Source: Mobula hypostoma
Taxonomy: Eukaryota
Reading direction: 5' to 3'
DNA: 64,000 nt
Assembly (NCBI RefSeq): GCF_963921235.1
Contig: NC_086097.1
Location: 6,510,001-6,574,000 of the forward strand
Program-made: the position numbers and the translations under genes
Shown: positions 8,067 to 61,770 of the stretch, piece after piece
How the letters are laid out: each line of letters starts with the position of its first letter
Numbering within the stretch: the stretch's first letter is position 1
The notes under the pieces: model-generated
What the model saw: the letters and a program-made list of their open reading frames with translations, nothing else
What the model was told of the DNA's origin: nothing
Databases searched by the model: none

Positions 8067-9651
8067 TTATAATGGGTGACTTCAATCTACATGTAGACTG
8101 GGTGAACCAAATTGGTAAAGGTGCTGAGGAAGAGGATTTCTTGGAATGTATGCGGGATGGTTTTTTGAACCAACATGTCGAGGAACCGACTAGAGAGCAG
8201 GCTATTCTGGACTGGGTTTTGAGCAATGAGGAAGGGTTAATTAGCGATCTTGTCGTGAGAGGCCCCTTGGGTAAGAGTGACCATAATATGGTGGAATTCT
8301 TCATTAACATGGAGAGTGACGTAGTTAATTCAGAAACAAAGGTTCTGAACTTAAAGAGGGGTAACTTTGAAGGTATGAGACATGAATTAGCTAAGATAGA
8401 CTGGCAAATGACACTTCAAGGATTGACGGTGGATATGCAATGGCAGGCATTTAAAGGTTGCATGGATGAACTACAACAATTGTTCATAAATTAGGGATAG
8501 CATCAATTCCAAAGAAGTAGCATACAAATTAGCCAGAGAAAGTGGCTCACCTGAGGACTGGGAGAAATTCAGAGTTCACAAAGAGTGGGAATAAACGGGA
8601 CCTTTTCAGAATGGCAGGCGGTGACTAGTGGGGTACCGCAAGGCTCAGTGCTGGGACCCCAGTTGTTTACAATATATATTAATGACTTGGATGAGGGAAT
8701 TAAATGCAGCATCTCCAAGTTTGCGGATGACACGAAGCTGGGTGGCAGTGTTAGCAGTGAGGAGGATGCTAAGAGGATGCAGGGTGACTTGGATAGGTTG
8801 GGTGAGTGGGCAAACTCATGGCAGATGCAATTTAATGTGGATAAATGTGAAGTTATCCACTTTGGTGGCAAAAATAGGAAAACAGATTATTATCTGAATG
8901 GTGGCCGATTAGGAAAAGGGGAGGTGCAACGAGACCTGGGTGTCATTATACACCAGTCATTGAAAGTGGGCATGCAGGTACAGCAGGCGGTGAAAAAGGC
9001 GAACGGTATGCTGGCATTTATAGCGAGAGGATTCGAGTACAGGAGCAGGGAGGTACTACTGCAGTTGTACAAGGCCTTGGTGAGACCACACCTGGAGTAT
9101 TGTGTGCAGTTTTGGTCCCCTAATCTGAGGAAAGACATCTTTGCCATAGAGGGAGTACAAAGAAGGTTCACCAGATTGATTCCTGGGATGGCAGGTCTTT
9201 CATATGAAGAAAGACTGGATGAACTGGGCTTGTACTCGTTGGAATTTAGAAGATTGAGGGGGGATCTGATTGAAACGTATAAGATCCTAAAGGGATTGGA
9301 CAGGCTAGATGCAGGAAGATTGTTCCCGATGTTGGGGAGGTCTAGAACGAGGGGTCACAGTTTGAGGATAGAGGGGAAGCCTTTTAGGACCGAGGTTAGG
9401 AAAAACTTCTTCACACAGAGAGTGGTGAATCTGTGGAATTCTCTGCCACAGCAAACTGTTGAGGCCAGTTCATTAGCTATGTTTAAAAGGAAGTTAGATA
9501 TGGCCCTTGTGGCTACAGGGGTCAGGGGGTATGGAGGGAAGGCTGGGTTCTGAGTTGGATGATCAGCCATGATCATAATAAATGGCGGTGCAGGCTCGAA
9601 GGGCCGAATGGCCTACTCCTGCACCTATTTTCTATGTTTCTATGTTTCTAT
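8067..9651 (+). mobile_element. Young CR1 LINE, 5'-truncated, with two internal deletions
   Basis: MGDFNLHVDW..SDHNM (endonuclease C-terminus) and GVPQGSVLGP..KFADDTKL (RT); (TTTCTATG)n tail; highly similar to 37994-40509. Confidence 0.97.
8585..9553 (+). pseudogene. CR1 ORF2 RT C-terminal remnant (322-aa open frame)
   Basis: QG and FADD motifs present; the N-terminal part of the RT is removed by the deletion at 8578/8579. Confidence 0.9.
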
Positions 9652-15209: not shown

Positions 15210-16430
15210 AGTTTCAAACTCCTGGGAGTGCACATCTCGCACAAACTCTCCTGGTCCCAAAACATATTGTGCACAATCAGGAAAGTTAACCAATGCCGCT
15301 CCTATCTCTGGGAGCTGAGGAGAGCTGGGCTATGCACATCTATATTCACATCATTCTACAGGATGCAGTAGAGAGCATCCCAACCGGCTGCCCCCAGTGT
15401 GGCCTCCTCAATATCGATGAAGCCAGATGTAGATGGGGAGACTATTTCGCTGAGCACCCACACTCCATCCACCAAAAAAGTAGGATCTCCCAGAGGCCTC
15501 TCATTTTAATTCCACTTCCCATTCCCATTCTGATATAACATTCCATAGCCTCCTCTACTGTCTCGATGAGGTCACACTCACGTTGGAGGAACAACACCCT
15601 ATATTCCGTCTGGGTAGCTTCCAACCTGATGGCATGAACATTGATTTCTTCAACTTCTGGTAATGACCCCCTCCCCTCCCTTCACCAGTCCCTATCCCCT
15701 TTTCCCTCTCTCACCTTATCTCCTTGCCTGCCCATCGCCTCCCTCTGGTGCTTCTTCCCACTTTTCTTTCTTCCATGGCCTTCTGTTCTCTCCTTTCAAA
15801 CTCTCCCTTCTTCAGCCCTGTATCTCTTCCACCAATCAACTTCCCAGCTCTTTACGTCATTACTCCTCCTCCTGGTTTCACCTGTCACCTTGCCTTTCTC
15901 TCTCCCCTCCCCCACCTTGTAAATCTACTCCTCATCTTTTTTTCTCCAGTCTTGCCGAAGGGGCTCAGCCCAAAATGTCCCCTGTACCTTTTTCCGTAGA
16001 TGCTGCCTGCCTGCTGAGTTCCATCTCTGCATGATGTGGAAACTGCACTGTAGCAGATGGGAAGGCATTACAACAGGTAGTCAAAACTGCCCAACGTATC
16101 ACTGGCACCAGTCTGCATGCAAGGACATATATATATATAGAAAAGTGCATCAGGGTGGAAGCTACGTAACATCCACACCAGGGCCACCAGACTCAAAAAC
16201 AGTTGCTTTCCCCAAGCAGCAACTCTGATCAACACCTCCACCCACTAACGCACCATCCACACCCCCAACCACCACCATTTTATCACTTCCAGTCAGAGTC
16301 ACCTTATGTACAGACACTCCTGTACCCAGCGTCACTTTATAGACATACAATCAGTCAATGTACAGTATATAAACTATCTTAGATATTTATATTTATTATG
16401 TCTTTTTTAATATTGTGTTTTTTGTGTTGT
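15210..16430 (+). mobile_element. Rex1/Babar-type 3' part split by a Penelope-like insert (about 15391-16021)
   Basis: ESIPTGC stops at 15390 and the I.A..GNCT continuation resumes at about 16022. The insert carries GIY-YIG C-terminal sequence, a pyrimidine-rich terminal repeat and a decayed hammerhead at about 15947-15985. Confidence 0.8.
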
Positions 16431-16512: not shown

Positions 16513-16580
16513 TGGCGCGTGGCCAAGTGGTTAAGGCATCAGTCTAATAATCTGAAGGTTGCTAGTTCAAGCCTCAGCTG
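16513..16580 (+). mobile_element. tRNA-derived SINE head (not an intact tRNA)
   Basis: A-box TGGCCAAGTGG and B-box-like AGTTCAAGCC; acceptor and anticodon stems do not close. Confidence 0.55.
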
Positions 16581-24384: not shown

Positions 24385-25339
24385 TATGTTGAGGTAGATT
24401 GTGTGATAAAGGGTTCATCTCATTTTACAATAGTTTTGTTCAGTCATCTTATAATAGCAGGATAGAAGCTGTCCTGTGAATCTGTGGAATTCATTGCCAC
24501 GTTTGGCTGTGGAGGCCAAGAAATTGGATACATTTAAAGTGAAGTTTGATATGTTCTTGATTACTTCAAGGGTACAGGGAGAATGCAGGAGAGTGAAGTT
24601 GAGAAGGGAAGTAAAGTCAGTTCTGAGGTGGCTGAAGGAGCTAAACTGAGAATTACTGACTCTTCCATTGATGAGGCATGGAGGTGGGTTGTGTGTAACG
24701 GGGTACATTACTTCCACCATTACCGCAGACCCTCTGTGTGCTCACAGTGCATGGCCTTGAGATGGACATACACTTTCTCCATCTCAATAAGTTATGCACC
24801 AGGGATTCCCAGTCAATGAGGACATTTCACTTTCTCTAATAGGTCGTAAACCCACCTCCTCCCTGCTCAGTCTCATGGACTAGATTCATTTTTAAGGGAG
24901 GGAAAAATGCCAGGGGCCTGGAAAATATTAAGCATAGCCATCATTTGGATGAACAAGTTTTATTACAGCACGACAAGAGTACATCTGGTGTATTATTCCC
25001 ATTTTAGCATTTTGAAAGTTTTTGTTTTAAATCTGACACCCCTGCTTGCTGGTGGCATTTTTAGATTCCTTGCCAAAAGCCTGTCTAATTTCATTTTAAT
25101 GCAATTATCTTCTATCCCCTCCTCAGGTAGTACTTTAGAGCCTGACAATTCTCTGAGAGAAAGTGCTTCTCCTTCTGTGACCCTGCATTCTATCACCAAT
25201 AATATTGAATGACCTTTGCTTATTACCCATTTGTCAACAAGAATTGAGATTCTCTGTATTGAAATGTCAGCTTGAAATCTCGGTATGAATGTTGTGCTGG
25301 GAGGGGCACCAGTTCTACACTCTGCCTCTTGTCTTCACC

Positions 25340-25842
25340 ATTGTGGTGGTTGTCCATCACGAGCAGCAATGACAGGAAACCTGTGCGGGAGAGTTTTTAA
25401 AGTGGAAAAGCCGTTGCGCTCGAAAGTTCCGTCGTCTTGACCTCAGAAGTCAGTGTCCAGTGGAAGGAGTGGACATCACCAGCTGGGGTCTTCCTTGGTT
25501 ACAGTGGATGATCATGACTTCTTCTGTGCCTTGTCATGCCCTTCGTTCTCCTCGGAGCATTGTAGTACTGTAGATCTCATCCTTCCGGTCCACGGGAGCA
25601 GACTTCACATACTAGGACAGGCATGTCCCTATCACAGCGCATAAGAGGCCACTGGCTACTCTCACCTGGCTTAGCCCACTGTTGAAGCGGTGTATCAAGG
25701 TGTGGCCATTGTCACATGCAAACAGCTACTTGGAGCCACAGGTGAGAGCGAGTGTTCGGTGGGGATCAAAAGTGAGTGAGCTGCCCTGGAATGGACATGA
25801 CAAGCTCCTTCAGCAGAGGTATTACCCCTCTCTGGACAGCCC
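25340..25842 (-). mobile_element. Non-coding element, probably derived from an RTE-type 5' UTR, starting with an HDV-like fold
   Basis: GC-richer block without a credible ORF; HDV-like elements at its minus-strand 5' end. The RTE assignment is by resemblance only. Confidence 0.5.
25659..25842 (-). ncRNA. Candidate HDV/CPEB3-like self-cleaving ribozyme
   Basis: Minus-strand order: P1 GGGCTGT / J1-2 of about 87 nt / P2 CTCTCACCTG / P3 GGC / L3 TCCAAGT plus insert / P3' GCC / P1' ACACCTT / GA / P4 CCGCT-TCAAC-AGTGG / J4-2 GCTAA / P2' (GC)CAGGTGAGAG. Confidence 0.65.
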
Positions 25843-25942
25843 AGATACCCTCATCACATTGATAAGCCACTCTAGATTTTATCCAAATCTTTTTACATTT
25901 ACATTTCATATCTCCAGTGTTCTCCAGTCGGGTGTACATGAG

Positions 25943-26647
25943 CCCCAGACAGTCCTTCCAAGTGAGGCAACACTTCACTTGTGAGTCTGTTGGAGTCATC
26001 TATTGCATACGGTGCTCCTGGTGCGGCCTCCTCTACATCGGTGAAACCCGACGCAGATTAGGGGACCGCTTCGTCGAGCACCTCTGCTCTGTCCGCCACA
26101 ACAGACAGGATCTTCCGGTTGCCAACCACTTCAACTCTGCTTCCCACTCCCATTCAGATATGTCCATACATGGCCTCCTCTACTGCCATGATGAGGCTAA
26201 ACTCAGGTTGGAGGAGCAACACCTTATATACCGTCTGGGTAGTCTCCAGCCCCTTGGTATGAACATAGAATTCTCCAACTTCTGGTAATTCCCTCCCCCT
26301 CCCTTCCCCTATCCCTATTTCACTCTGCCCCCTCCTCCAGCTGCCTATCACCCCCCTCATGGTTCCGCCTCCTTCTACTACCCATTGTGTTTTCCCCTAC
26401 TCTTTCTTCACCTTTCCTGCCTATCACCTCCCTGCTTCCCCTCCCCCACCCCTTTATCTTTCCCCTTACTGGTTTTTCACCTGGAACCTACCAGCCTTCT
26501 CCTTCCCACCCTCTCCCCACCTTCTTTATAGGGCCTCTGCCCCCTCCCTCTACAGTCTTGACGAAGGGTTCCGGCCCGAAACGTCGACCGACCTTTTCCA
26601 CGGATGCTGCCCGACCTGCTGAGTTCCTCCAGCGTGTTGTGAGTGTT
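25943..26647 (+). mobile_element. Young Penelope-like element, 5'-truncated (GIY-YIG, terminal repeat, hammerhead)
   Basis: ORF 25917-26288 FTCESVGVIYCIRCSWCGLLYIGETRRRLGDRFVEH..PLGMN; perfect 13-bp TSD GGGTGTACATGAG at 25930-25942 and 26648-26660. Confidence 0.95.
26553..26590 (+). ncRNA. Minimal hammerhead motif, C3U variant
   Basis: CAGTC-TTGACGA-A-GGG-TTCCGG-CCC-GAAA-C-GTC-GACCG. Confidence 0.6.
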
Positions 26648-35391: not shown

Positions 35392-36608
35392 AGCACACAC
35401 AAAATGCTGGTAGAACTCAGCAGGCAAGGCAGCATCTATGGAAAAAAAGTATAGTCATCGTTTCGTGCTGAAACCTTTCAGCAGGACGGGAGAAAGAAAG
35501 ATGAGGAGTCGATTTAAAGTAGGGGAAGGGAGAGAGAAATTCCAGGTGATAGGGAGGGATAAAGTAAAGGGGTGGGAAGTTGATTGGTGAAAGAGAAACA
35601 GGGCTGGAGAAGGGGGGATCTAATAGAGGAGGACAGAAGACCATGGAAGAAAGAAAAGGGGGAGGAGCACCAGAGGGAGGCGATAGGCAGGCAAGGAGAT
35701 AAGGTGAGAGAGGGAAAAGGGGACAGGGAATGGTGAAGGAGAGGAGTGGGGGCATTACCGGAAGTTGAAGAAATCGATGTTCATGCCTTTAGCTTGGAAG
35801 CTACCCAGACAGAATATAAGGTGTTGTTCCTCCAACCTGAGTGTGGCCTCATCGCAACAGTAGAGGAGGTCATGGATTAACACATTGGAATGGGAGTAGG
35901 AGGTGCAGTTAAAATGGGTGACAGTGGGAGATCCAGCTTCTTCTGTTGGATTGCACATAGGTGCTTGGCGAAGTGGTCTCCCAATCTACGTCCAGGTCTC
36001 ACCAATATGCAGGAGGTCACACCGGAGATAGTATATGACCCCAGCTGACTCATAGGTGAAGTGTCACCTCATCTGGAAGGACTGCTTGGGGCCCTGAATG
36101 GTAGTGAGGGAGGAGGTGTAGGGGCAGGTGTAGCACTTGTCTGCTTGCAAGGATAAGGGCCAGGAGGGAGGTCAGTGGGGAGGAGCGAATGGAAAAGGAG
36201 TCATGTAGGGAGTGATCCCTGCGGAAAGCAGCAAGTAGGGGGGAGGAGGGAAAGATGTGCTTGGTTGTGGGTGGAGGTGACGGAAGTTCCGGAGAATTAT
36301 GTACTGGACATGGCAGCTGGTGGGCTGGTAGTTGAGGACAAGAGGAACCCTATCTCTGGTAGGGTGGCGGGAAGATGGGGTAAGAGGAGATGTACATGAA
36401 ATGGAAAAGATATGGTTGAGGGCAGCGTTGATGGTGGAGGAAGGGAACCTTGGTCTTTGAAAGAGGAGGACATCTCCTTTGTTTTAGAATGAAAACCCTC
36501 AACCTGAGAGCAGATGTGGTGGAGATGGAGGAATTGTGAGAAGGGGATGGCATTTTTACAGGTAGCAGGGTGAGAAAAGGTGTAGTCCAGGTAGCTGTGA
36601 AAGTCCAT
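35392..36608 (-). mobile_element. Penelope-like element (RT thumb, GIY-YIG, terminal repeat)
   Basis: DFHSYLDYTFSHPATCKNAIPFSQFL (36297-36608); HFNCTSYSHS..RLEEQHLIFCLGS..GMNIDF (35755-35958). Confidence 0.92.
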
Positions 36609-36627: not shown

Positions 36628-37450
36628 CTTCCCCACTGACCTCCCTCCTGGCACTTATTCTTGCAAGCAGAACAAGTGCTACACCTGCCCCTACACCTCC
36701 TCCATCACTACCATTCAGAGCCCCAAGCAGTCCTTCCAGGTGAGGCGATGCTTCACCTGTGAGGCTGTTGGGGTCATATACTCTGTCTGGTGCTCCTGGT
36801 GTGGCCTCTTGTATATTGGTGAGACCCAGCGTAGATTGGTAGACTGTTTCGTTGAGCACCTACATTCCGTCTGCCAGAAGAATGGGATCTCCCAGTGGCC
36901 ACCTATTTTATTTACACTTCCCATTCCCATTCCAATATGTCAATCCATGGCCTCCTCTACTGTCACGCTGAGGCCAAACTCAAGTTGGAGGAACACCTTA
37001 TATTCCGTCTGGGTGGCCTCCAACCTGATGGCATAAACATCGATTTCTCAAACTTCTGGTAATGCCCTCCCCCGGTCCTTCACCATTCCCCATCCCTTTT
37101 TCCCTCTCTCACCTTATCTCCTTGCCTGTCCATCTCCCGCCTCTGGTTCTCCTCCCCCTTTTCTTTCTTCCAAGGCCTTCTGTCTTCTATTATCAGACTC
37201 CGAATTCTCCAGCCCTGTATCTTTTTCACCAGTCAACTTCCCAGCTCTCTCTTCACACCAACCTCTCCCGGTTTCACCTATCACTTTGTGTTTCTCCCTC
37301 CTCTCTCCATCCCCCCCACACCTTATAAATCTACTCCTCATCTCTTTTTTTTTCTCCAGTCCTGCCGAGGAACCTTGGCTCAAATCGTCGACTTTACTTT
37401 TTCTCCATAGACGCTGCCTGCCCTACTAAGTTCCTCCAGCATTTTGTGTG
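36628..37450 (+). mobile_element. Penelope-like element (GIY-YIG, terminal repeat), inverted relative to 35392-36608
   Basis: PGTYSCKQNKCYTCPY..FTCEAVGVIYSVWCSWCGLLYIGETQRRL (36623-37036). Confidence 0.92.
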
Positions 37451-37993: not shown

Positions 37994-40509
37994 AGCAGTT
38001 ATAATGGGTGACTTCAATCTGCATGTAGATTGGGTGAACCAAATTGGTAAAGGTGCTGAGGAAGAGGATTTCTTGGAATGTATGCGGGATGGTTTTTTGA
38101 ACAAACATGTCGAGGAACCAACTAGAGAGTAGGCTATTCTGGACTGGGTTTTGAGCAATGAGGAAGGGTTAATTAGCAATCTTGTCGTGAGAGGCCCCTT
38201 GGGTAAGAGTGACCATAATATGGTGGAATTCTTCATTAAGATGGAGAGTGACATAGTTAATTCAGAAACAAAGGTTCTGAACTTAAAGAGGGGTAACTTT
38301 GAAGGTATGAGACGTGAATTAGCTAAGATAGACTGGCAAATGACACTTAAAGGATTGACGGTGGATATGCAATGGCAAGCATTTAAAGGTTGCATGGATG
38401 AACTACAACAATTGTTCATCCCAGTTTGGCAAAAGAATAAATCAAGGAAGGTAGTGCACCCGTGGCTGACAAGAGAAATTAGGGATAGTATCAGTTCCAA
38501 AGAAGAAGCATACAAATTAGCCAGAGAAAGTGGCTCACCTGAGGACTGGGAGAAATTCAGAGTTCAGCAGAGGAGGACAAAGGGCTTAATTAGGAAGGGG
38601 AAAAAAGATTATGAGAGAAAACTGGCAGGGAACATAAAAACTGACTGTAAAAGCTTTTATAGATATGTAAAAAGGAAAAGACTGGTAAAGACAAATGCAG
38701 GTCCCCTACAGACAGAAACAGGTGAATTGATTATGGGGAGCAAGGACATGGTAGACCAATTGAATAATTACTTTGGTTCTGTCTTCACTAAGGAGGACAT
38801 AAATAATCTTCCAGAAATAGTAGGGGACAGAGGGTCCAGTGAGATGGAGGAACTGAGCGAAATACTTGTTAGTAGGGAAGTGGTGTTAGGTAAATTGAAG
38901 GGATTGAAGGCAGATAAATCCCCAGGGCCAGATGGTCTGCATCCTAGAGTGCTTAAGGAAGTAGCCCAAGAAATAGTGGATGCATTAGTGATAATTTTTC
39001 AAAACTCGTTAGATTCTGGACTAGTTCCTGAGGATTGGAGGGTGGCTAATGTAACCCCACTTTTTAAAAAAGGAGGGAGAGAGAAACCGGGGAATTATAG
39101 ACCGGTTAGCCTAACATCGGTGGTGGGGAAATTGCTGGAGTCAGTTATCAAAGATGTGATAACAGCACATTTGGAAAGCGGTGAAATCATTGGACAAAGT
39201 CAGCATGGATTTGTGAAAGGAAAATCATGTCTGACGAATCTCATAGAATTTTTTGAGGATGTAACTAGTAGAGTGGATAGGGGAGAACCAGTGGATGTGG
39301 TATATTTGGATTTTCAAAAGGCTTTTGACAAGGTCCCACACAGGAGATTAGTGTGCAAACTTAAAGCACACGGTATTGGGGGTAAGGTATTGATGTGGAT
39401 GGAGAATTGGTTAGCAGACAGGAAGCAAAGAGTGGGAATAAACGGGACCTTTTCAGAATGGCAGGCAGTGACCAGTGGGGTACCGCAAGGCTCAGTGCTG
39501 GGACCACAGTTGTTTACTATATATATTAATGACTTAGACGAGGGAATTAAATGCAGCATCTCCAAGTTTGCGGATGACACAAAGCTGGGCGGCAGTGTTA
39601 GCTGTGAGGAGGATGCTAAGAGGATGCAGAGTGACTTGGATAGGTTGGGTGAGTGGGCAAATTCATGGCAGATGCAATTTAATGTGGATAAATGTGAAGT
39701 TATCCACTTTGGTGGCAAAAATAGGAAAACAGATTATTATCTGAATGGTGGCCGATTAGGAAAAGGGGAGGTGCAACGAGACCTGGGTGTCATTATACAC
39801 CAATCATTGAAAGTGGGCATGCAGGTACAGCAGGTGGTGAAAAAGGCGAATGGTATGCTGGCATTTATAGCGAGAGGATTCGAGTACAGGAGCAGGGAGG
39901 TACTACTGCAGTTGTACAAGGCCTTGGTGAGACCACACCTGGAGTATTGTGTGCAGTTTTGGTCCCCTAATCTGAGGGAAGACATCCTTGCCATAGAGGG
40001 AGTACAAAGAAGGTTCACCAGATTGATTCCTGGGATGGCAGGACTTTCATATGCAGAAAGACTGGATGAACTGGGCTTGTACTCGTTGGAATTTAGAAGA
40101 TTGAGGGGGGATCTGATTGAAACATATAAAATCCTAAAGGGATTGGACAGGCTAGATGCAGGAAGATTGTTCCTGATGTTGGGGAACTCCAGAACGAGGG
40201 GTCACAGTTTGAGGATAAAGGGGAAGCCTTTTAGGACCGAGATTAGGAAAAACTTCTTCACACAGAGAGTGGAGAATCTGTGGAATTCACTGCCACAGGA
40301 AACAGTTGAGGCTAGTTCATTGGCTATATTTAAGAGGGAGTTAGATATGGCCCTTGTGGCTAAAGGGATCAGGGCGTATGGAGGGAAGGCTGGTGCAGGG
40401 TTCTGAGTTGGATGATCAGCCATGATCATAATAAATGGCAGTGTAGGCTCGAAGGGCCGAATGGCCTACTCCTGCACCTATTTTCTATATTTCTATGTTT
40501 CTATGTTTC
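37994..40509 (+). mobile_element. Young CR1 LINE, 5'-truncated in the endonuclease domain, 7-bp TSD TATGCAC
   Basis: TATGCAC at 37987-37993 and 40510-40516; (TTTCTATG)n tail. Confidence 0.97.
38151..40406 (+). CDS. CR1 ORF2 reverse transcriptase, 751-aa open frame lacking the endonuclease N-terminus
   Basis: KSPGPDG, NYRPVSLTS, QHGF, YLDFQKAFDKVPH, GVPQGSVLGP and KFADDTKL all intact. The frame starts at a TTG; an in-frame TAG near 38129 corresponds to CAG in the 8067 copy. Not autonomous. Confidence 0.9.
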   Translation: MSNEEGLISNLVVRGPLGKSDHNMVEFFIKMESDIVNSETKVLNLKRGNFEGMRRELAKIDWQMTLKGLTVDMQWQAFKGCMDELQQLFIPVWQKNKSRKVVHPWLTREIRDSISSKEEAYKLARESGSPEDWEKFRVQQRRTKGLIRKGKKDYERKLAGNIKTDCKSFYRYVKRKRLVKTNAGPLQTETGELIMGSKDMVDQLNNYFGSVFTKEDINNLPEIVGDRGSSEMEELSEILVSREVVLGKLKGLKADKSPGPDGLHPRVLKEVAQEIVDALVIIFQNSLDSGLVPEDWRVANVTPLFKKGGREKPGNYRPVSLTSVVGKLLESVIKDVITAHLESGEIIGQSQHGFVKGKSCLTNLIEFFEDVTSRVDRGEPVDVVYLDFQKAFDKVPHRRLVCKLKAHGIGGKVLMWMENWLADRKQRVGINGTFSEWQAVTSGVPQGSVLGPQLFTIYINDLDEGIKCSISKFADDTKLGGSVSCEEDAKRMQSDLDRLGEWANSWQMQFNVDKCEVIHFGGKNRKTDYYLNGGRLGKGEVQRDLGVIIHQSLKVGMQVQQVVKKANGMLAFIARGFEYRSREVLLQLYKALVRPHLEYCVQFWSPNLREDILAIEGVQRRFTRLIPGMAGLSYAERLDELGLYSLEFRRLRGDLIETYKILKGLDRLDAGRLFLMLGNSRTRGHSLRIKGKPFRTEIRKNFFTQRVENLWNSLPQETVEASSLAIFKRELDMALVAKGIRAYGGKAGAGF

Positions 40510-45848: not shown

Positions 45849-48800
45849 CTAGAAACATAGAAACCTGGAAAACCTACAGTACAATACACAATGCTGTGCT
45901 GAACATGTCCTTTCCTCAGAAATTACCTAAGATTACCTGTAGCCCTCTATTTTTCTAAGCTCTATTTACCTATCCAGGAGTCTCTTAAAAGACCCTATCG
46001 TATCCGCCTCCACCACTGTTACCAGCAGCCCTTTCCATGCACTCACCACTCTCTGCGTAAAACTTACCCCTGACATCTCCTCTGTACCTACCTCCAAGCA
46101 CCTTAAAACTGTGCCCTCTGGTGTTAGTCATTTCAGTCCTGGGAAAAAGCCACTGACTATCCACACGATCAATACTCCTCAACATCTTATACATCTCTAT
46201 CAGGTCACCTCTCATCCTCTGTAGCTCCAAGGAGAAAAGACTGAGATCACTCAACCTATTCTCATAAGGCATGCTCCCCAATCCAGGCAACATCCTTGTA
46301 AATCTTCTCTGCAGCCCTTCTATAGTTTCCACATCCTTCCTGTAGTGAGGTGACCAGAACTGAGCACAGTTCTCCAGGTGGGGTCTGACCGGGGTCCTAT
46401 ATAGCTGCAACATTACCTCTCAGCTCTTAAACTCAATCCCACGGTAGGTGAAGGCCAATGTTTCGTATGACTTCTTAACCACTGAGTCAACCTACGCAGC
46501 AGCTTTGAGTGTCCAATAGACTCAGACCCCAAGATCCCTCTGATCCTTCACACTGCCAACAGTCTTACCATGAATACTATATTCTGCCATCATATTTGAC
46601 CTACCAAAATGAACCACCTCACACTTATCTGGGTTGAACCCCATCTGCCATTCTCAGCCCAGTTTTGCATCCTATCGATGTCCCGCTGTAACCTCTGACA
46701 GCCCTCCACACTATCCACAACACCCCCAACCTTTGTATCATCAGCAAATTTACTAACCCATCCCCCAACTTCCTCATCTAGGTCATTTATAAAAATCACA
46801 AAGAGAAGGAGTCCCAGACAGATCCCTGAGGCACAACACTGGTCACCAATCTACATGTAGAATATGACTCATTCATAACCACTCTTTGCCTTCTGTGGGC
46901 AAGCCAATTCTGGACCTACAAAGCAAGGTCTCCTTTTATCCCATGCCCCCTTACATTCTCAATAAGCCTTGCATGAGGTACCTTATCAAAAGTCTTGCTG
47001 AAATCCATATACTCTACATCTACTGCTCTACCTTCATCAATGTGTTTAGTTACATCCTCAAAAAGTTCAATCAGGCTCATAAGGCACGACCTGCCTTTGA
47101 CAAACCCATGCTGACTATTCTTAATCATATTATGCCTCTCCAAATCTTCATAAATCCTGCCTCTCAGGATCTTTTCCATCAACTTATCAACCACTGAAGT
47201 AAGACTCACTGGTCTATCATTTCCTGGGCTATCTCTATGCCCTTTCTTGAATAAGTAAACAACATCTACAACCCTCCAATCCTCCAGAAGCTCTCCCATC
47301 TCCACTGATGATGAAAAGATCATTGCTAGAGGCTCAGCAATCTCCTCCCTCACTTCCCACAGTAGCTTGGAGGTACATCTCATCTAGTCCCGGAGACTTA
47401 TCCATTCTGATGTTTTCCAAAAGCTCCAGCACATCCTCTTTATTAATGTCTATATGTTCAAGCTTTCAATTCACTGTAAGTCATTCCTGCAGTCACCAAG
47501 ATCCTTTTTCATAGTGAATACTGAAGCAAAGTATTCATTAGGCCCTCTGCTATCTCCTCCGGTTCCATACCCACTTTTCCACTGTCACACTTGTTTGGTT
47601 TTATTCTCTCACATCTTATCCTCTTGCTCTTCACATACTTGTAGAATGCCTTGGGGTTTTCCTTAATCCTGCTCACCAAGGCCTTCTCACGACCTCTTCT
47701 GGCTCTCCTAATTTCATTCTTTAGCCCCTTCCGGCTAGCCTTATAATCTTATAATTTATAGCCTTATAATTTACCCCAACACTAAGCACATCTTTCCCTC
47801 TCCACCCCTCTCCACTTCCCGCAGGGATCGGTCCCTACGTGACTCCCTGGTCCACACATCCCTCCCCACGGATCTCCCACCCAGCACTTATCCCTGTAAG
47901 CGCAAGTGCTACACCTTATTTTTAATAAACGTCCGCCGCAACAGATAAGATCTCCCGGTAGCCACCCACTTCAACTCTGCTTCCCACTCCCATTCGGATG
48001 TGTCCATACATGGCCTCCTCTACTGCCATGATGAGGCTAAAGTCAGGTTGGAGGAGCAACACCTCATATACTGTCTAGGTAGTCTCCAGCCCCTTGGTAT
48101 GAACATAGAATTCTCCAACTTCCGGTAATTCCCTCCCCCTCCCTTCCTCTATCCCTATTTCACTCTGCCCCCTCCCCCAACTGCCTATCACCTCCCTCAT
48201 GGTTCCGCCTCCTTCTACTACCCATTGTGTTTTCCCCTATTCCTTCTTCACTTTTCGTGCCTATCACCTCCCTGCTTCCCCTCCCCCACCCCTTTATCTT
48301 TCCCCTTACTGGTTTTTCACCTGGAACCTACCGGCCTTCTCCTTCCCACCCTCCTCCCACCTTCTTTATAGGGCCTCCTCCTCTTCCCTCTTCATTCCTA
48401 ACGAAGGGTTCCGACCCGAAACGTCGACCGATCTTTTCCACGGATGCTGCCCGACCTGCTGAGTTCCTCCAGCGTGTTGTGAGTGTAGTCTTATAATCTT
48501 CTAGATCTTTATCATTACCTAGTTTTTTGAACCTTTTGTAAGCTTTTCTTTTCTTCTTGACTAGATTTTCAACACCATTTGTACCACGGTTCCTGTACCT
48601 TACCATCATTTCCCTGTATTATTGGAACGTTTCTATGCAGAACACCACGCAAATGTCCCCTGAACATTTGCCACATTTCTTCCGTACATTTCCCTGAGAA
48701 CATCTGTTTCCAATTTATGCTTCCAAGTTCCTGCCTGATAGCCTCATATTTACCCCCACTCCAATTAAATGGTTTTGTAATTTGTCTGTTTCTATCCCTC

Positions 48801-50424
48801 TCCAATGCTATGGTAAAAGAGATAGACATGACAATCCTATTATTATTATTATACCTTTCCAGAATCTGTCTTCCTATCTGCTCCTCGATGTCCCTGTTAC
48901 TATTGGGCGGTCTATGAAAAACACAGAGAGGAGTTATTGACCCCTTCCTGTTTCTAACTTCCACCCACAGAGACTCAGTAGACAATCCCTCCATGACTAC
49001 CTTCTTTTCTGCAGCCGTGACACTATCTCTGATCAGCAATGCCACGCTCCCACGTCTTCTGCCTCCATCCCTGTCCTTTTTGAGGCATCTAAAGCCTGGC
49101 ACTCTAGGTAACTATTCCTGCCCTGAGCCATTCAAGTCTCTGTAATGGCCACAACATTACAGAGACATTACAGAGCTCCAAGTACTCATCCACGCTCTAA
49201 GCTCATCTGCTTTGTTCGTGATGCTTCTTGCATTAACATAGACAGATCTCAAACCATCAGTCTGAGTGTATCCTTTCTCTAAGCTTTCTCTATTTGTGAG
49301 CCAACTGCCCCTTCCTCCGTCTCTTCAGTTCGGTTCCCAACCTCCAGCAATTCTAGTTTAAATTCTCCCCAGTATCCTTCGCAAACCTCCCTGCCAGGAT
49401 ATTGGTCCCCCTCGGATTCAAGTGCAACCCGTCCTTTTTGTACAGGTCACTCCTGCCCCAGAAGAGGTCCCAAAGATCCAGAAATCTGAATCCCTACCCC
49501 CTGCTCCAATCCCTCAGCCACACATTTATCCTCCACCTCACTCTATTCCTATACCGACTGTCGTGTGGCACAGGTAGTAATCCCGAGATTACTATCTTGG
49601 AGGTCTTGCTTATCAACTTCCTTCCTAACACCCTGTAGTCATTTGCCAGGACTTCTTCCCTTTTCCTACCTATGACGTCGGTACCAATATGTACCACAAC
49701 CTCTGGCAGTTTACCTTCCCACTTCAGGATATCGTGGACGCAATCAGAAACATCCTGGATACTGGCACCTGGGAGGCAAACTACCATCCAAGTTTCTTTC
49801 CTGCATCCACAGAATCACCTGTCTGACCCCCTAACTATAGAGTCCCCTGTTACTGCTGTCTTCTTCCTTTCCCTACCCTTCTGAGCCACAGGGCCAGACT
49901 CTGTGCCAGTGACACAGCCACTGTTGCTTCCCCCAGGTAGGCCGTTTCCTCCAACAGTATTCAAACAGGAGTACTTACTGCTAAGGGAGACAGCCAAAGG
50001 AGTACTCTCTAGTACCTGACCTTCGCCCTTCCCTCTCCTGACAGTTACCCACTTATCGTCTCCTGAGGCTTCGGTGTGACTACTTGCCTATAGCTCCTCC
50101 CTATCACTTCCTCACTTTCCTTGACCAGATGAAGGTCATTGAGCTGCATCTCCAGTTTCCTAACGCTGATCTAAGGAGCTGCAGCTCAATGCACCTTCCG
50201 GGAGTCTGGGAGTCTCCCAGACTAACCACATCTGACACCCAGTACAGAACACTGGCCTCACAGACATACTTCCTGTTTCTATTCCTCACAGATAACTTAC
50301 CTACCTCACCTCATCCTGTTGAACCAAAGCCCTCCTACTCTGACTCTTTCTACTCTGTTGCCTACTCCTCTGATGCCAGCTCTATAAAGCTGTCTTCTTT
50401 TTATTTTGTTCCCGCCGGGCTTAC
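45849..50424 (-). mobile_element. Near full-length CR1 LINE (ORF1 esterase, ORF2 EN-RT), decayed, split by a PLE
   Basis: VVCLPGASIQDVSD..VVVHIGTD (49494-49787), TGDSIVRG (49815-49997), LWVEVRNRKG, MDFSKTFDKVPH, KFADDTKVGG. Confidence 0.95.
47773..48485 (+). mobile_element. Young Penelope-like element inside CR1, internally deleted
   Basis: Near-identical to 26090-26647; TSD-like TAGCCTTATAATCTT (47736-47750) and TAGTCTTATAATCTT (48486-48500); hammerhead core reads CTAACGA. Confidence 0.93.
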
Positions 50425-58827: not shown

Positions 58828-61592
58828 GGGCTGGGAAATGAATGTTCGGTGATATACGTCCTATCGAAAGGACAGACAGTTGGGCAGAGGGGGTGGAGTG
58901 GCTCTGTCGGTGAGGAATGAAATTCAGTCCCTTGCGAGGGGTGACATAGAATCAGGAGATATAGAGTCAATATGGATAGAACTGAGAAATTGTAAGGGCA
59001 AAAAGACCCTAATGGGAGTTATCTACAGGCCCCCAAACCGTAGCCTGGATGTAGGATGCAAGTTGAATCAAGAGTTAAAATTGGCATGTCGCAAAGGCAA
59101 AGCTACGGTTGTTATAGGGGATTTCAACATGCAGGTAGACTGGGAAAATCAGGTTGGTACTGGACCCCAAGAAAGGGAGTTTGTGGAGTGCCTCTGAGAT
59201 GGATTCTTAGAGCAGCTTGTACTGGAGCCTACCAGGGAGAAGGCAATTCTGGATCTAGTGTTGTGTAATGAACTGGATTTGATAAGGGAACTCGAGGTAA
59301 AGGAGCCATTAGGAGGTAGTGACCATAATATGATAAGTTTTAATCTACAATTTGAGAGGGAGAAGGGAAAATCAGTAGTGTCAGTATTACAGTTGAACAA
59401 AGGGGACTATGGAGCCATGAGGGAGGAGCTGGCCAAAGTTGACTGAAAAGATACCCTAGCAGGGATGACAGTGGAACAACAATGGCAGGTATTTCTGGGA
59501 ATAATACAGCAGGTGCAGGATCAGTTCATTCCAAAGAAGAAGAAAGATTCTAAGGAGAGTAAGGGGCGACTGTGTCTGACAAGGGAAGTCAAGGACAGTA
59601 TAAAAATAAAAGAGAGGAAGTATAACATAGCAAAGATGAGTGGGAAGCCAGAGGATTAGGAAACTTTTAAAGAGCAACAGAAAAAAATTAAAAAGGCAAT
59701 ACGGGGAGAAAACATAAGGTACAAAGGTAAGCTAGCCAAGAATATAAAGGAGGATAGTAAAAGCTTCTTTCAGTGTGTGAAGAGGAAAAAATTAGTTAAG
59801 ACCAAAGTTGGGCCCTTGAAGACAGAAATGGGTGAATTTATTATGGAGAACAAAGAAATTGCAGAGGAGTTGAACAGGTACTTTGGATCTGTCTTCACTA
59901 GGGAAGACACAAACAATCTCCCAGATGTAATAGTGACCAGGGGACCTGGGGAAACGGAGGAACTGAATGAAATTCACATTAGGCAGAAAATGGTGTTGGA
60001 TAGACTGATGGGACTGAAGGCTGATAAATCCCCATGGCTTGATGGTCTGCATCCCAGGGTACTTAAGGAGGTGGTTCCGGAAATCGTGGATGCATTGGTA
60101 ATCATTTTCGAATGTTCTATAGATTCAGGATCAGTTCCTGTGGATTGGAGGGTAGCTAATGTTATCCCACTTTGTAAGAAAGGAGGGAGAGAGAAAACAG
60201 GGAATTATAGACCAGTTAGTCTGACATCAGTAGTGGGGAAGATGCTGGAGTTAATTATAAAAGATGAAATAGCGGCAAATTTGGATAGCAGTAACAGGAG
60301 TGGTCTGAGTCAGCATGGATTTACCAAGGGGAAATTATGCTTGGCTAATCTTCTGGAATTTTTTGAGGATGTAACTATGAAACTGGAGAGAGCCAGTGGA
60401 TGTAGTGTACCTGGATTTTCAAAAAGCCTTTGATAAGGTCCCACATAGGAGATTAGTGGGCAAAATTGGAGCACATGGTATTGGGGGTAGGGTACTGACA
60501 TGGATAGAAAATTGGCTGGCAGTCAGGAAACGAAGAGTAGGGATTAACGGGTCCTTTTCAGAATGACAGGCAGTGACTAGTGGGGTACCGCAAGGCTCAG
60601 TGCTGGGACTGCAGCCATTTATACATTGTACATGAATGATTTAGATGAAGGGATTAAAAGTAACAAGAGCAATTTTGCAGATGACGCAAAGCTGGGTGGC
60701 AGTGTGAAATGTGAGGAGGATGTTATGAGAATGCAGGGTGACTTGGACAGGTTGGGTGAGTGGGCAGATGCAGTTTAATGTGGATAAATGTGAGGTTATC
60801 CACTTTGGTGGCAAGAACAGGAAGGCAGATTACTATCTGAATGGTGTCAAGTTAGGAAAAGGGGAAGTACAATGAGATCTAGGTGTCCTTGTTCATCAGT
60901 CACTGAAAGTAAGCATGCAGGTACAGCAGGCAGTGAAGAAAACTAATGACGTGTTGGCCTTCATAACAAGGGGAATTGAGTATAGGAGCAAAGAGGTCCT
61001 TCTGCAGTTGTACAGGGCCCTGGTGTGACCACACCTGGAGTATTGTGTGCAGTTTTGGTCTCCAAATTTGAGGAAGGACATTCTTGCTATTGAGAGAGTG
61101 CAGCGTAGGTTCATGAGGTTAATTCCCAGGATGGCGGGACTGTCATATGTTGAAAGATTGGAGCAACTGGGCTTGTATACACTGGAATTTAGAAGGATGA
61201 GCGGGGTTCAGATTGAAACATATAAGATTATTAAGGGATTGGACAAGCTAGAGGCAGAAAACACGTTCCCGATGTTGGGGGAGTCCAGAACCAAAGGCCA
61301 CAGTTTAAGAATAAGGGGTAGGCTATTTAGAACGGAGTTGAGGAAAAACTTTTTCACCCAGAGAGTGGTGGATCTGTGGAATGCTCTGCGTCAGAAGGCA
61401 GTGGAGGCCAAGTCTCTGGATGCTTTCAAGAAAGAGTTAGATAGAGCTCTGAAAGATAGTGGAGTCAAAGGATATGGTGAGAAGGCAGAAACGGGGTACA
61501 GATTGTGGATGATCGGCCATGATCGCAATGAATGGTGGTGCTGGCTCGAAGGGCCAAATGGCCTACTACTGCACCTATTGTCTATTGTCTAT
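58828..61592 (+). mobile_element. CR1 LINE ORF2 (EN-RT), 5'-truncated, with multiple stops and frameshifts
   Basis: GGGVALSV..WIELRN..IGDFN, SDHNM, NYRPVSLTS, QFWSPNLRKD..FFTQRVV; tail CTATTGTCTATTGTCTAT. Confidence 0.95.
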
Positions 61593-61594
61593 AA

Positions 61595-61770
61595 AATGCT
61601 GGAGGGTATCAGCAGTTCAGGCAACATCTTTGAGAATGAATAATCAGTCAACATTTTGGGCTGAGACCCTTTTTCAGTACTGGAAAGGAAGGGGGAAGAT
61701 GCCAGAATAAAAAGGTGGGAGGAGGGAAAGGAGGACTACTTAGAAGCTGACAGGTGAGGCCAAGTGGGTG
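61595..61770 (-). mobile_element. PLE terminal-repeat fragment with decayed hammerhead
   Basis: CAGTCAACATTTTGGGCTGAGACCCTTTTCAGTACTGG. Confidence 0.65.

What the first reader, a model, noticed from the sequence alone, without database searches (positions are those of the whole stretch)
25659..25842. HDV/CPEB3-like ribozyme candidate with a hairpin-sized insertion in L3
Seen on the minus strand, in the canonical order (plus-strand coordinates): P1 5' GGGCTGT (25842-25836); P2 5' CTCTCACCTG (25748-25739); P3 GGC (25737-25735); L3 TCCAAGT (25734-25728); about 21 extra nt AGCTGTTTGCATGTGACAATG, a weak hairpin; P3' GCC (25706-25704); P1' ACACCTT (25703-25697), pairing 6/7 with a G.U at the first position; GA; P4 CCGCT/AGTGG; J4/2 GCTAA with the putative catalytic C at 25674; and a perfect 10-bp P2' CAGGTGAGAG (25668-25659). 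Established: HDV-like ribozymes have this nested double pseudoknot, L3 reads UCCUCGC in HDV and UUCACGU in CPEB3, and they process 5' ends of R2, RTE and ingi/L1Tc retrotransposons. Inference: this is the self-processing 5' end of a ~500-bp non-autonomous element. An insertion at the 3' side of L3 is unusual and would be missed by descriptors with a fixed loop length. This copy has a C-C mismatch in P1 and GA instead of GG for P1.1, so it may be slow or dead.
Basis: partly seen in the sequence, partly recalled or inferred. Interest (0 to 1): 0.85.

Follow-up and report, generated by a model that had tools for sequence, protein, structure and literature searches.

The report
HDV-like ribozyme heading a retroposon family
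The candidate is the decayed 5' end of a 530-bp mobile element present in thousands of copies, and the family's consensus sequence folds without a single mismatch into a hepatitis-delta-type self-cleaving RNA that has an unusual extra hairpin in its active-site loop; cleavage itself has not been tested.

Summary
On its own, though, this copy is no better than chance. A relaxed HDV descriptor that it passes also hits shuffled windows 3.1 times per 64 kb.

The support comes from the family. The site is the 5' module of a ~531-bp retroposon on the minus strand (window 25344-25851). It has more than 6,000 first-look candidates in its 3.5-Gb genome, variable target-site duplications, and no tRNA, 5S or 7SL head.

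In the majority consensus of 58 copies, all 31 proposed pairs form (30 Watson-Crick, 1 G.U). Every defect of the window copy is repaired: P1 becomes GGGGUGU/ACACCCC, P1.1 becomes CC/GG, and the L3 insert becomes a 5-bp hairpin.

Against the idea: no Rfam match, no covariation within the family, a G-C rather than G.U pair at the cleavage site, no precedent found for the L3 insert, and no RNA data.

Verdict: a probable ancestral HDV-like ribozyme (about 0.65), a new variant of a known kind. The window copy itself is probably dead.

The parts
25344..25851 (-). This window's copy of the ~531-bp SINE-like retroposon family. The 5' end is at 25851/25850 and the 3' end ...GGACAACCACCA is at 25344.
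   Evidence: Boundaries come from alignments of 31 and 42 copies. Genome hits begin and end at these positions. The 3' end was read.
25851..25861 (-). 5' copy of a degenerate target-site duplication (CAATGTGATGA).
   Evidence: Read and compared by eye with 25332-25343. It is imperfect (one indel and one mismatch). The script did not pick it up for this copy (row L009); other copies have cleaner duplications.
25332..25343 (-). 3' copy of the target-site duplication (CAATGGTGAAGA).
   Evidence: Read.
25845..25851 (-). Terminal P1 5' strand in my model (AGGGTAT here, GGGGTGT in the consensus). The predicted cleavage site is 5' of its first base.
   Evidence: The consensus pairs 7/7 Watson-Crick with ACACCCC. 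Target-site duplications end at 0 or +1 of this G in 9 of the 19 copies that have a duplication.
25834..25842 (-). Second GGGGTGT(CC) repeat (GGGCTGTCC here). In my model it is the 5' strand of the helix that closes the J1/2 domain (P1.2-like).
   Evidence: In the MFE folds of the near-consensus copies L040 and L045 it pairs with GGACACUC. 85% of cells are paired in 58 copies, but that helix was derived from one of those copies.
25749..25833 (-). J1/2 domain. The 3' strand of its closing helix (GAACACTC) lies at 25750-25757.
   Evidence: Large structured J1/2 domains are documented for the Agam-2 ribozymes (PMC4908430) and for R2 (PMC3774820).
25739..25748 (-). P2 5' strand, CTCTCACCTG.
   Evidence: Perfect 10-bp inverted repeat I9. 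93.5% of cells are paired in 58 copies.
25735..25737 (-). P3 5' strand, GGC.
   Evidence: 93.7% of cells are paired.
25728..25734 (-). L3 core, UCCAAGU. It has the U, the CC and the G expected of an HDV-type L3.
   Evidence: T is present in 57/58 copies, C in 56/58, the second C in 56/58 and G in 57/58.
25707..25727 (-). 21-nt insertion on the 3' side of L3. The consensus forms a 5-bp hairpin GCUGU/ACAGC with a 9-nt loop; this copy is weakened to ACAAU.
   Evidence: 94.4% of cells are paired. The window's G.U and C-A pairs become G-C and C-G in the consensus.
25704..25706 (-). P3 3' strand, GCC.
25697..25703 (-). P1 3' strand, ACACCTT (ACACCCC in the consensus).
25695..25696 (-). J1/4 partner of P1.1: GA here, GG in the consensus.
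   Evidence: The two G columns hold G in 48 and 29 of 58 copies, and the lower count fits CpG decay.
25676..25690 (-). P4 hairpin CCGC-UUCAACA-GUGG (CCGC/GCGG in the consensus).
   Evidence: 85.5% of cells are paired. The variants are explained by CpG decay.
25669..25675 (-). J4/2, GCUAAGC (GCUAAAC in the consensus), with the putative catalytic C at 25674.
   Evidence: C is present in 54/58 copies, U in 53/58, A in 52/58 and the second A in 57/58.
25659..25668 (-). P2 3' strand, CAGGTGAGAG (CAGGTGAGGG in the consensus).
25352..25374 (-). 3' stem-loop followed by the AACCACCA tail. In the consensus the stem is ATCGT-CGGAC-ACGAT. It is the presumed recognition site for a partner LINE's reverse transcriptase.
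   Evidence: Seen in the consensus of 42 copies and in the window sequence. The function is inferred and the partner was not found.

Best explanation
The region is the 5' module (about 195 nt) of a ~531-bp non-autonomous non-LTR retroposon. The family's founder sequence encoded an HDV-like, nested double-pseudoknot self-cleaving ribozyme.

Proposed mechanism (inferred, not shown):
1. The element carries no promoter of its own that I could detect, so it is transcribed as part of host or neighbouring transcripts.
2. The ribozyme cuts just 5' of the terminal GGGGUGU. This gives the RNA a defined 5' end.
3. A partner LINE's reverse transcriptase recognises the 3' stem-loop and AACCACCA tail and copies the RNA into new sites, producing variable target-site duplications.

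Fold of the consensus:
- P1: GGGGUGU (nt 1-7) with ACACCCC.
- A 3-nt linker.
- A structured ~90-nt J1/2 domain closed by GGGUGUCC/GGACACUC.
- A 2-nt linker.
- P2: 10 bp, CUCUCACCUG/CAGGUGAGGG.
- P3: GGC/GCC.
- L3: UCCAAGU followed by an inserted 5-bp hairpin.
- P1.1: CC/GG.
- P4: CCGC/GCGG.
- J4/2: GCUAAAC, carrying the catalytic C.

The window copy is an old, decayed insertion with 3 of 31 pairs broken and is probably inactive.
For: Repeat family:
- The first look found 8,358 and 6,120 candidates. The 40 scored in each search are 73-80% identical to the window copy and share the same ends.
- Of 42 full-length copies, 19 have target-site duplications with at least 8 matching bases (9-14 nt long). 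In 9 of those 19 the duplication ends at 0 or +1 of the first G of GGGGTGT.

The consensus repairs the fold:
- In alignment A1 (58 copies) the consensus forms 31 of 31 proposed pairs: 30 Watson-Crick and 1 G.U. The window copy has 24, 4 and 3 mismatches.
- Eight pairs differ between window and consensus. Seven are better in the consensus, one goes from U-A to U.G, and none breaks.
- Of 207 decoy 7-mer pairs that form exactly 6/7 pairs in the window copy, only 2 become 7/7 Watson-Crick in the consensus. Those 2 are the two P1 options.

Pairing and key bases across copies:
- 88.5% of cells are paired, against 34-49% when partners are slid by 1-3 columns.
- The L3 bases U, C, C, G and the J4/2 bases C, U, A, A are kept in 52-57 of 58 copies.

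Descriptor controls:
- P1 with no mismatch plus P2 of at least 10 bp occurs 5 times in 150 shuffled windows and 0 times in 159 kb of real flanks.
- 6 of 58 family copies pass it, and 4 of them with P1 at the terminus: L040, L044, L045 and L051.
- L040 differs from the consensus at 3 positions of the module.

No alternative head was found. Rfam scans at E up to 10 of the window region, of 18 loci, and of the L014 and L040 elements give no tRNA, 5S or 7SL match.

Precedents in papers I read:
- In R2 ribozymes P1 and P1' lie 23 to more than 700 nt apart, and duplicated P1 sequences occur at 5' ends (PMC3774820, sections 16 and 18).
- The Agam-2 ribozymes have a 12-bp P2 and a structured J1/2 with short linkers that speeds cleavage by nearly 1000-fold (PMC4908430, abstract and Results).
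- LINEs and non-autonomous SINEs are reported to use HDV-like ribozymes (PMC6765202, passages).
Against: - No HDV-type Rfam model matches. This holds for the gathering scan of the window, for E up to 10 scans of the window region, 18 loci, L014 and L040, and for RF00094 over the whole genome, where only 84 of 46,579 candidates were scored.
- There is no covariation within the family. Shuffled controls pair as well as the real data (88.2% against 88.5%; 50 of 500 shuffles reach the observed value). The double changes in P4 and P1.1 are what CpG decay would produce.
- Pseudoknot-free folding is not unusually stable: z = -0.13 for the window copy and -0.73 for L040.
- The MFE fold extends P3 to UGUGGC/GCCACA, which competes with P1.
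- L3 forms the active site, and a 21-nt hairpin inside it has no precedent in anything I could read.
- The consensus cleavage-site pair is G-C (G.U in 14-16 of 58 copies), whereas HDV has a G.U wobble there. That this wobble matters for activity is recalled, not checked here.
- The J1/2 model was derived from an MFE fold of a near-consensus copy, so its pairing in the consensus is true by construction.
- The 5' module is only slightly better conserved than the body: 10.2% against 11.9% non-CpG divergence in 28 copies not selected on the module.
- The strict descriptor was written after I had seen the consensus.
- There is no RNA evidence, and no partner LINE was found.
Confidence: 0.65

Rival explanations
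1. The helices are real features of the founder RNA but it does not self-cleave. On this view the module is a structured 5' domain (a binding site for the reverse transcriptase, an internal promoter, or a stability or translation element), or a ribozyme relic disabled by the L3 insertion. The sharp 5' end would then come from transcription initiation.
For: The consensus pairing is real, but nothing measures catalysis. The L3 insertion and the G-C cleavage-site pair are atypical. No HDV covariance model matches. L1Tc combines a promoter and a ribozyme in the same 77 nt (PMC3383444, abstract only), so a 5' module can serve other functions.
Against: The order of the helices, the adjacency of P3' and P1', the U-CC-G pattern in L3, GG for P1.1, CUAA in J4/2, and P1 sitting exactly at the family's 5' terminus together match one specific catalytic fold. 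No pol III-type head was detected.
Confidence: 0.2
2. Chance. A GC-rich repeat happens to satisfy a very permissive descriptor, and the resemblance to HDV means nothing.
For: The relaxed descriptor hits shuffled windows 3.1 times per 64 kb and real flanks 2.4 times per 64 kb. Folding z-scores are not significant. There is no covariation.
Against: Only 2 of 207 decoy helices do as well, and both are P1. The strict version occurs 5 times in 19 Mb of shuffled sequence. The further features (all-Watson-Crick P1 and P3, at most one G.U in P2, a 2-bp P1.1) lower this, by my own rough arithmetic, to the order of 1e-10 per base. On top of that, P1 coincides with the repeat's 5' terminus.
Confidence: 0.08
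3. One reading: P1 is the internal GGGCTGT and cleavage falls 5' of G25842.
For: This repeat also pairs 7/7 Watson-Crick with ACACCCC in the consensus, and it is better kept in the copies (81.7% against 71.2% of cells paired). R2 elements with duplicated P1 sequences are thought to be able to cleave at either one (PMC3774820, section 18).
Against: Full-length copies and their target-site duplications begin 9 nt further upstream. Cleavage at the internal site would yield progeny lacking the first 9 nt, and only a few copies in the alignments look like that (by eye, for example L006/L011, L060, L062 and L067). In the MFE folds this repeat pairs with GGACACUC and closes the J1/2 domain.
Confidence: 0.15
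4. The head derives from a small pol III RNA (5S rRNA, tRNA or 7SL), as in ordinary SINEs. The conserved GCTAA..CAGG stretch would then be a promoter box.
For: By eye, and from memory of the 5S sequence, GGCCACACC and GCTAAACCAGG loosely recall parts of 5S rRNA. This was a lead only.
Against: No 5S, tRNA or 7SL match at E up to 10 in the window copy, in 18 other loci, or in the elements of L014 and L040. The 5S-like stretch would begin about 135 nt inside the element, which does not fit a pol III start at the family's 5' end.
Confidence: 0.03

Closest known systems
drz-Agam-2 HDV-like ribozymes of Anopheles (PMC4908430, abstract and Results read). Their link to RTE retrotransposons is recalled, together with passages of PMC6765202.
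   Same: Both are large HDV-like ribozymes with an extended P2 (12 bp there, 10 bp here). In both, a long base-paired J1/2 domain is joined to P1 and P2 by short linkers (3 and 2 nt here), and both sit at the 5' end of a promoter-less non-LTR element.
   Different: Agam-2 has a normal L3. Here L3 carries a 21-nt hairpin insertion. The sequences are unrelated, and no Rfam HDV-type model matches. Activity is untested here.
R2 retrotransposon ribozymes and their internally deleted non-autonomous derivatives, the SIDEs (PMC3774820, sections 12, 16 and 18 read; PMC3414825, search listing and abstract only).
   Same: An HDV-like fold defines the 5' end of the retroposon RNA by self-cleavage from a co-transcript. 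P1 and P1' can be far apart (23 to more than 700 nt). Duplicated P1 sequences occur at the 5' end. Non-autonomous copies keep the ribozyme together with the 3' recognition end.
   Different: R2 inserts only into 28S rDNA. This family is dispersed over many contigs with variable target-site duplications. The R2 ribozymes described there are not reported with an L3 hairpin.
L1Tc/NARTc Pr77 ribozyme of trypanosomatids (PMC3185411, PMC3383444 and PMC4035085; abstracts from search listings only).
   Same: An HDV-like ribozyme occupies the first nucleotides of a dispersed LINE and is shared by its short non-autonomous derivative.
   Different: Pr77 is 77 nt long and also acts as a promoter. Here the module is about 195 nt, the partner LINE is unknown, and no promoter function has been shown.
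HDV antigenomic ribozyme and the mammalian CPEB3 ribozyme (core motifs recalled from memory; Rfam RF00094 was tested).
   Same: The order of the helices is the same, P3 is 3 bp, L3 begins UCC and has G at its sixth position, GG follows P1', and J4/2 reads GCUAA.
   Different: L3 is 28 nt long rather than 7-8. J1/2 is about 95 nt rather than about 5. The consensus cleavage-site pair is G-C rather than G.U. RF00094 does not match.

Membership tests
HDV-like self-cleaving ribozymes | Nested double pseudoknot in the order P1, J1/2, P2, P3, L3, P3', P1', (P1.1), P4, J4/2, P2'. | tested here: met
   The consensus of 58 copies forms 31/31 pairs in this order. 88.5% of cells are paired, against 34-49% for slid partners.
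HDV-like self-cleaving ribozymes | P1 of 6-7 bp, without internal mismatch, beginning at the cleavage-site G. | tested here: met
The consensus GGGGUGU/ACACCCC is 7/7 Watson-Crick.
HDV-like self-cleaving ribozymes | A 3-bp P3 followed directly by P1', with the key L3 residues (U, the C or Cs for P1.1, and the G of the reverse wobble). | tested here: met
   GGC/GCC is followed directly by ACACCCC. The L3 U, C, C and G are kept in 56-57 of 58 copies.
HDV-like self-cleaving ribozymes | A short L3 of about 7-8 nt that closes the active site. | tested here: not met
   L3 is 28 nt: UCCAAGU plus a 21-nt insert that forms a 5-bp hairpin in the consensus. No precedent was found in the papers I could read. 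The main review (PMC3256349) and the original descriptor paper (PMC3159031) are not held.
HDV-like self-cleaving ribozymes | P1.1 of 1-2 bp between L3 and J1/4. | tested here: met
   The consensus is CC/GG. The two pairs are formed in 48 and in 31 (29 C-G plus 2 U-A) of 58 copies, the lower count at a CpG site. The window copy keeps 1 of the 2.
HDV-like self-cleaving ribozymes | A catalytic C in J4/2 (the C-N-R-A motif; the motif is recalled). | tested here: met
   GCUAAAC lies just before P2'. The C is kept in 54/58 copies. That it is catalytic is inferred from its position only.
HDV-like self-cleaving ribozymes | A G.U wobble at the cleavage-site pair of P1, as in HDV (its importance is recalled). 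| tested here: not met
For the terminal P1 the pair is G-C in 23 copies and G.U in 14. The U variants sit at a CpG site, so they look like decay.
HDV-like self-cleaving ribozymes | Mg2+-dependent self-cleavage yielding a 5'-OH at G1. | not testable with these tools
   No RNA run with raw reads was on offer. The laid contigs cannot show molecule ends.
HDV-like self-cleaving ribozymes | A match to a curated covariance model (Rfam HDV_ribozyme, CPEB3 and related models). | tested here: not met
   No hit at gathering score or at E up to 10. This is expected if the long J1/2 and the L3 insert are real, so it says little either way.
SINE (pol III-headed short retroposon) | A 5' head derived from tRNA, 5S or 7SL carrying an internal pol III promoter. 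| tested here: not met
   No such Rfam match in the window copy, in 18 loci, or in the L014 and L040 elements.
Non-autonomous non-LTR retroposon (LINE-mobilised, like a SIDE or NARTc) | Short size, defined ends, variable-length target-site duplications and high copy number. | tested here: met
   The consensus is 531 bp. Target-site duplications of 9-14 nt occur in 19 of 42 copies. There are more than 6,000 first-look candidates.
Non-autonomous non-LTR retroposon (LINE-mobilised, like a SIDE or NARTc) | A 3' (and here also a 5') end shared with an autonomous partner LINE. | tested here: inconclusive
   No partial matches to the element turned up in the window or in about 160 kb of flanks.

The most novel reading that the evidence does not exclude
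A large animal genome carries thousands of copies of a promoter-less retroposon whose 5' end is cut by a new structural subclass of HDV-like ribozyme. In this subclass a helix is inserted into the active-site loop L3, turning the P3 loop into a junction, and it is combined with an Agam-2-style structured J1/2 and a long P2. A few near-intact copies (L040, L044, L045, L051) may still cleave. Fixed-loop descriptors and covariance models would miss this subclass everywhere.
Probability: 0.5. Interest if true: 0.75.

Novelty: new variant of a known kind. Interest (0 to 1): 0.65.

Why it matters
HDV-like ribozymes that cut retroposon RNAs free from host transcripts are known from R2, RTE, baggins and L1Tc. 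All described examples keep a short L3, and searches are built on that assumption.

If the consensus RNA cleaves, three things follow:
- The active-site loop tolerates, or makes use of, an inserted helix. That widens the search space for this ribozyme class.
- It would explain how a short element with no pol III head obtains a precise 5' end.
- It would add thousands of ribozyme-derived sequences to a 3.5-Gb genome.

It would also offer a natural test of how a peripheral helix attached to L3 affects folding of the double pseudoknot.

If the RNA does not cleave, the case is a useful warning: a perfect-looking HDV-type fold can arise, or persist, without catalysis.

Tried and rejected
- Rfam: no HDV-type, tRNA, 5S or 7SL match. 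I ran the gathering scan of the window, E up to 10 scans of 25300-26200, of 18 loci, and of the L014 and L040 elements, and RF00094 over the whole genome (84 of 46,579 candidates scored, so a weak test).
- Covariation within the family is uninformative, because the copies decay independently.
- Conservation of the module against the body differs only slightly. The 42-copy set is biased, because about half of its copies were fetched with a query from the module.
- Partner LINE: not found. There are no partial hits in the window or the flanks. Three copies that end near nt 228 (L042, L045, L055) turned out to be interrupted or deleted copies, not a second family. In the two I checked for reading frames (L045, L042) the downstream DNA holds no LINE-like frames by eye.
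- Sequencing runs: no RNA holder was listed and only contigs were available.
- Laying four coded runs (X1, X2, X10, X11) showed family-like contigs over 25329-25845 and none of the start or end pile-ups that contigs cannot show anyway. This gives no evidence on expression or cleavage.
- Earlier findings of the scan: nothing by place, by sequence or by words.
- Papers not held: PMC3256349, PMC3159031 and PMC3308841. The statement that no L3 insertion is in print therefore rests only on searches and on the parts of the papers I read, and it is weak.
- An alternative register with a shorter L3 (insert of 4 nt, P1 at 25848) appears only in the window copy with a mismatch and is not a family feature.
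- The second descriptor hit, at 49349 on the minus strand, is a G-rich chance match.
Full report
**The observation.** The perfect 10-bp P2 repeat was recovered independently as inverted repeat I9. One detail needs correcting: P1/P1' has two G.U pairs plus the C-C mismatch. The window copy forms 24 Watson-Crick, 4 G.U and 3 mismatched pairs out of the 31 proposed, counting P1.1 and the hairpin in the L3 insert.

**Is this copy more than chance? No.**
- The stretch folds no better than its shuffles (z = -0.13).
- I wrote a relaxed HDV descriptor: P1 of 7 bp starting with G and with at most 1 mismatch; J1/2 of 1-120 nt; P2 of at least 7 bp; P3 of 3 bp; L3 of UNCNNGN plus 0-30 extra nt; G after P1'; CNRA within 3 nt of P2'.
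- It finds 2 sites in the real window, this one and a G-rich site at 49349.
- It finds 3.1 sites per shuffled window, and 141 of 150 shuffles have at least one. With P2 of at least 10 bp it finds 0.19 per window.
- In 159 kb of real flanking DNA it finds 6 sites.
- Allowing the L3 insertion accounts for most of this noise. With an insert of at most 1 nt the rate is 0.15 per window.

**What the region is.**
- The window is part of a 3.48-Gb, 200-contig eukaryotic assembly.
- The candidate lies in a dispersed repeat. The first look found 8,358 and 6,120 candidates in two searches. The 40 scored in each are 73-80% identical to the window copy and start and stop at the same places.
- Alignments of 31 and then 42 copies with flanks give a 531-bp consensus that runs from GGGGTGTATGGGGTGTCC... 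to ...GGACAACCACCA.
- The window copy occupies 25851/25850 to 25344 on the minus strand. It is 83% identical to the consensus of the first 31 copies (end read).
- Of 42 full-length copies, 19 have target-site duplications with at least 8 matching bases, 9-14 nt long. Examples are L036 (TGTTCAAACATT) and L015 (GAGTTCTCATG), seen.
- These features are the signature of a LINE-mobilised retroposon: variable duplications, no poly(A), and a 3' stem-loop followed by a short tail.
- It has no tRNA, 5S or 7SL head, so it is not an ordinary pol III SINE.

I aligned the 5' module of 58 copies, the window plus 57 loci (A1).
- The majority consensus forms all 31 proposed pairs, 30 Watson-Crick and 1 U.G.
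- P1 becomes GGGGUGU/ACACCCC, so the C-C mismatch and both G.U pairs are repaired.
- The 'weak hairpin' in the L3 insert becomes GCUGU/ACAGC, and P4 becomes CCGC/GCGG.
- Of the 8 pairs where window and consensus differ, 7 are better in the consensus, 1 goes from U-A to U.G, and none breaks.
- As a control, I took the 207 pairs of 7-mers in the module that form exactly 6/7 pairs in the window copy. Only 10 become 7/7 in the consensus and only 2 become 7/7 Watson-Crick. Those 2 are the two P1 options.
- Across copies, 88.5% of cells are paired, against 34-49% when partners are slid by 1-3 columns.
- The L3 bases U, C, C, G and the J4/2 bases C, U, A, A are kept in 52-57 of 58 copies.
- Three natural copies (L040, L044, L045) keep all 31 pairs, and L040 differs from the consensus at only 3 positions of the module.
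- On the descriptor, 14 of 58 copies pass the relaxed form, 6 pass a strict form (no P1 mismatch, P2 of at least 10 bp), and 4 pass it with P1 at the terminus.
- That strict form occurs 5 times in 150 shuffled windows (19 Mb) and 0 times in the real flanks.
- The features not in the descriptor are an all-Watson-Crick P1 and P3, at most one G.U in P2, and a 2-bp P1.1. By my own rough arithmetic they lower the chance rate to the order of 1e-10 per base. This is an after-the-fact estimate, not a simulation.

**Where the 5' end is.**
They do not. They lie 8-9 nt upstream.
- The consensus begins with a direct repeat, GGGGTGT-AT-GGGGTGT. In 9 of the 19 copies with duplications, the duplication ends at 0 or +1 of the first G of the first repeat.
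- That terminal repeat pairs with ACACCCC just as well as the internal one.
- In the pseudoknot-free MFE folds of L040 and L045, the internal repeat (GGGUGUCC) instead pairs with GGACACUC immediately upstream of P2. This closes a ~90-nt J1/2 domain and leaves linkers of 3 and 2 nt.
- Because that model was derived from a near-consensus copy, its 88% pairing in the alignment is not independent evidence.
- It does reproduce a documented architecture. The Agam-2 ribozymes combine a 12-bp P2, a base-paired J1/2 and short linkers, and this speeds cleavage by nearly three orders of magnitude (PMC4908430, abstract and Results).
- In R2 ribozymes P1 and P1' are 23 to more than 700 nt apart, and duplicated P1 sequences at the 5' end have been described and modelled (PMC3774820, sections 16 and 18).

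**How it most likely works.** None of this is shown. The promoter-less element is transcribed within other transcripts. The ribozyme cuts 5' of the terminal G. The 3' stem-loop and AACCACCA tail recruit a LINE reverse transcriptase. Target-primed reverse transcription to the cleaved 5' end then gives full-length copies that start at G1. [quoted passage not shown]

**What speaks against it.**
- No HDV-type covariance model matches the window copy, 18 other loci, or the L014 and L040 elements. RF00094 finds nothing in the genome, but only 84 of 46,579 candidates were scored.
- There is no covariation inside the family: shuffled controls pair as well as the data (88.2% against 88.5%). The double changes in P4 and P1.1 are what CpG decay would produce. 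This is expected for dead copies and decides nothing.
- The MFE of L040 is not unusual (z = -0.73), and it contains a competing UGUGGC/GCCACA helix.
- L3 builds the active site, and I found no precedent for a helix inserted in it. The key review and the descriptor papers are not held, so this negative is weak.
- From memory only: the last L3 position of the genomic HDV ribozyme (U27) is dispensable. That makes this spot the most plausible place for an insertion.
- The consensus cleavage-site pair is G-C, not the G.U of HDV.
- The module is only slightly better conserved than the body: 10.2% against 11.9% non-CpG divergence in the 28 copies not selected on the module.
- No RNA data could be brought to bear, and the partner LINE was not found.

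**Verdict.**
The founder of this retroposon family very probably encoded an HDV-type double pseudoknot at its exact 5' end. I put about 0.65 on it being, or having been, a working self-cleaving ribozyme.
- The rivals are a structured but non-catalytic domain (0.2), chance (under 0.1) and a pol III head (about 0.03).
- The window copy itself is a decayed and probably inactive member.
- It works like the retroposon HDV-like ribozymes. Membership stays provisional because L3 length and the G.U wobble are not met and catalysis is untested. I file it as a new variant of a known kind.

Noticed in passing
window 25866-26285 (+): An open frame that starts 15 nt from the element's 5' end matches the GIY-YIG endonuclease domain (PF01541, 22.8 bits against a cut-off of 22.6). 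It looks like the C-terminal part of a Penelope-like retroelement (that attribution is from recall). Related DNA recurs at 36718-37149, 35656-36092 (inverted) and 15389-15749. In addition, 26091-26646 is 94% identical to 47931-48486. The retroposon may have inserted into this element.
   Followed up: partly
window 38133-40403 (+), 62563-63699 (-), 8555-9553 (+), 59660-61643 (+): Several LINE-type reading frames. The first two were scanned and match RVT_1, including a 757-aa frame. The other two look like the same kind of frame by eye. None shares detectable sequence with the retroposon's 3' tail, so these are not obviously its partner.
   Followed up: partly
loci L019, L028, L029, L033, L035 (5' and 3' flanks of the element): Five copies share similar flanks on both sides: ...TTCATC..GTATGCTGC.. 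upstream and ..GCTGCTGTGTTCTTTTGATT..GTAAATGAAC downstream. One insertion therefore seems to have been carried along inside another repeat or a duplicated segment, and these are not five independent insertions.
   Followed up: no
window 16518-16580 (+): A tRNA match in Rfam that only just reaches the gathering score (29.1 against 29 bits). It may be a tRNA-derived repeat rather than a gene.
   Followed up: no
window 25659-25668 (-) and family consensus CAGGTGAGGG: The P2 3' strand reads like a consensus 5' splice site (CAG|GTGAG; the consensus is recalled). Sense-oriented copies inside introns could offer cryptic donor sites.
   Followed up: no
L040 and L044 (same contig, about 90 kb apart): The two copies closest to the consensus (3 and 5 differences in the module) lie on one contig and share changes. 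They may be a recent segmental duplicate rather than two young insertions.
   Followed up: no
5' flanks of the family copies (A1 column 9): The base just before the element is T in a majority of the 58 copies, and it belongs to the target-site duplication where one is visible (for example L036). This suggests an A/T-rich target preference.
   Followed up: partly
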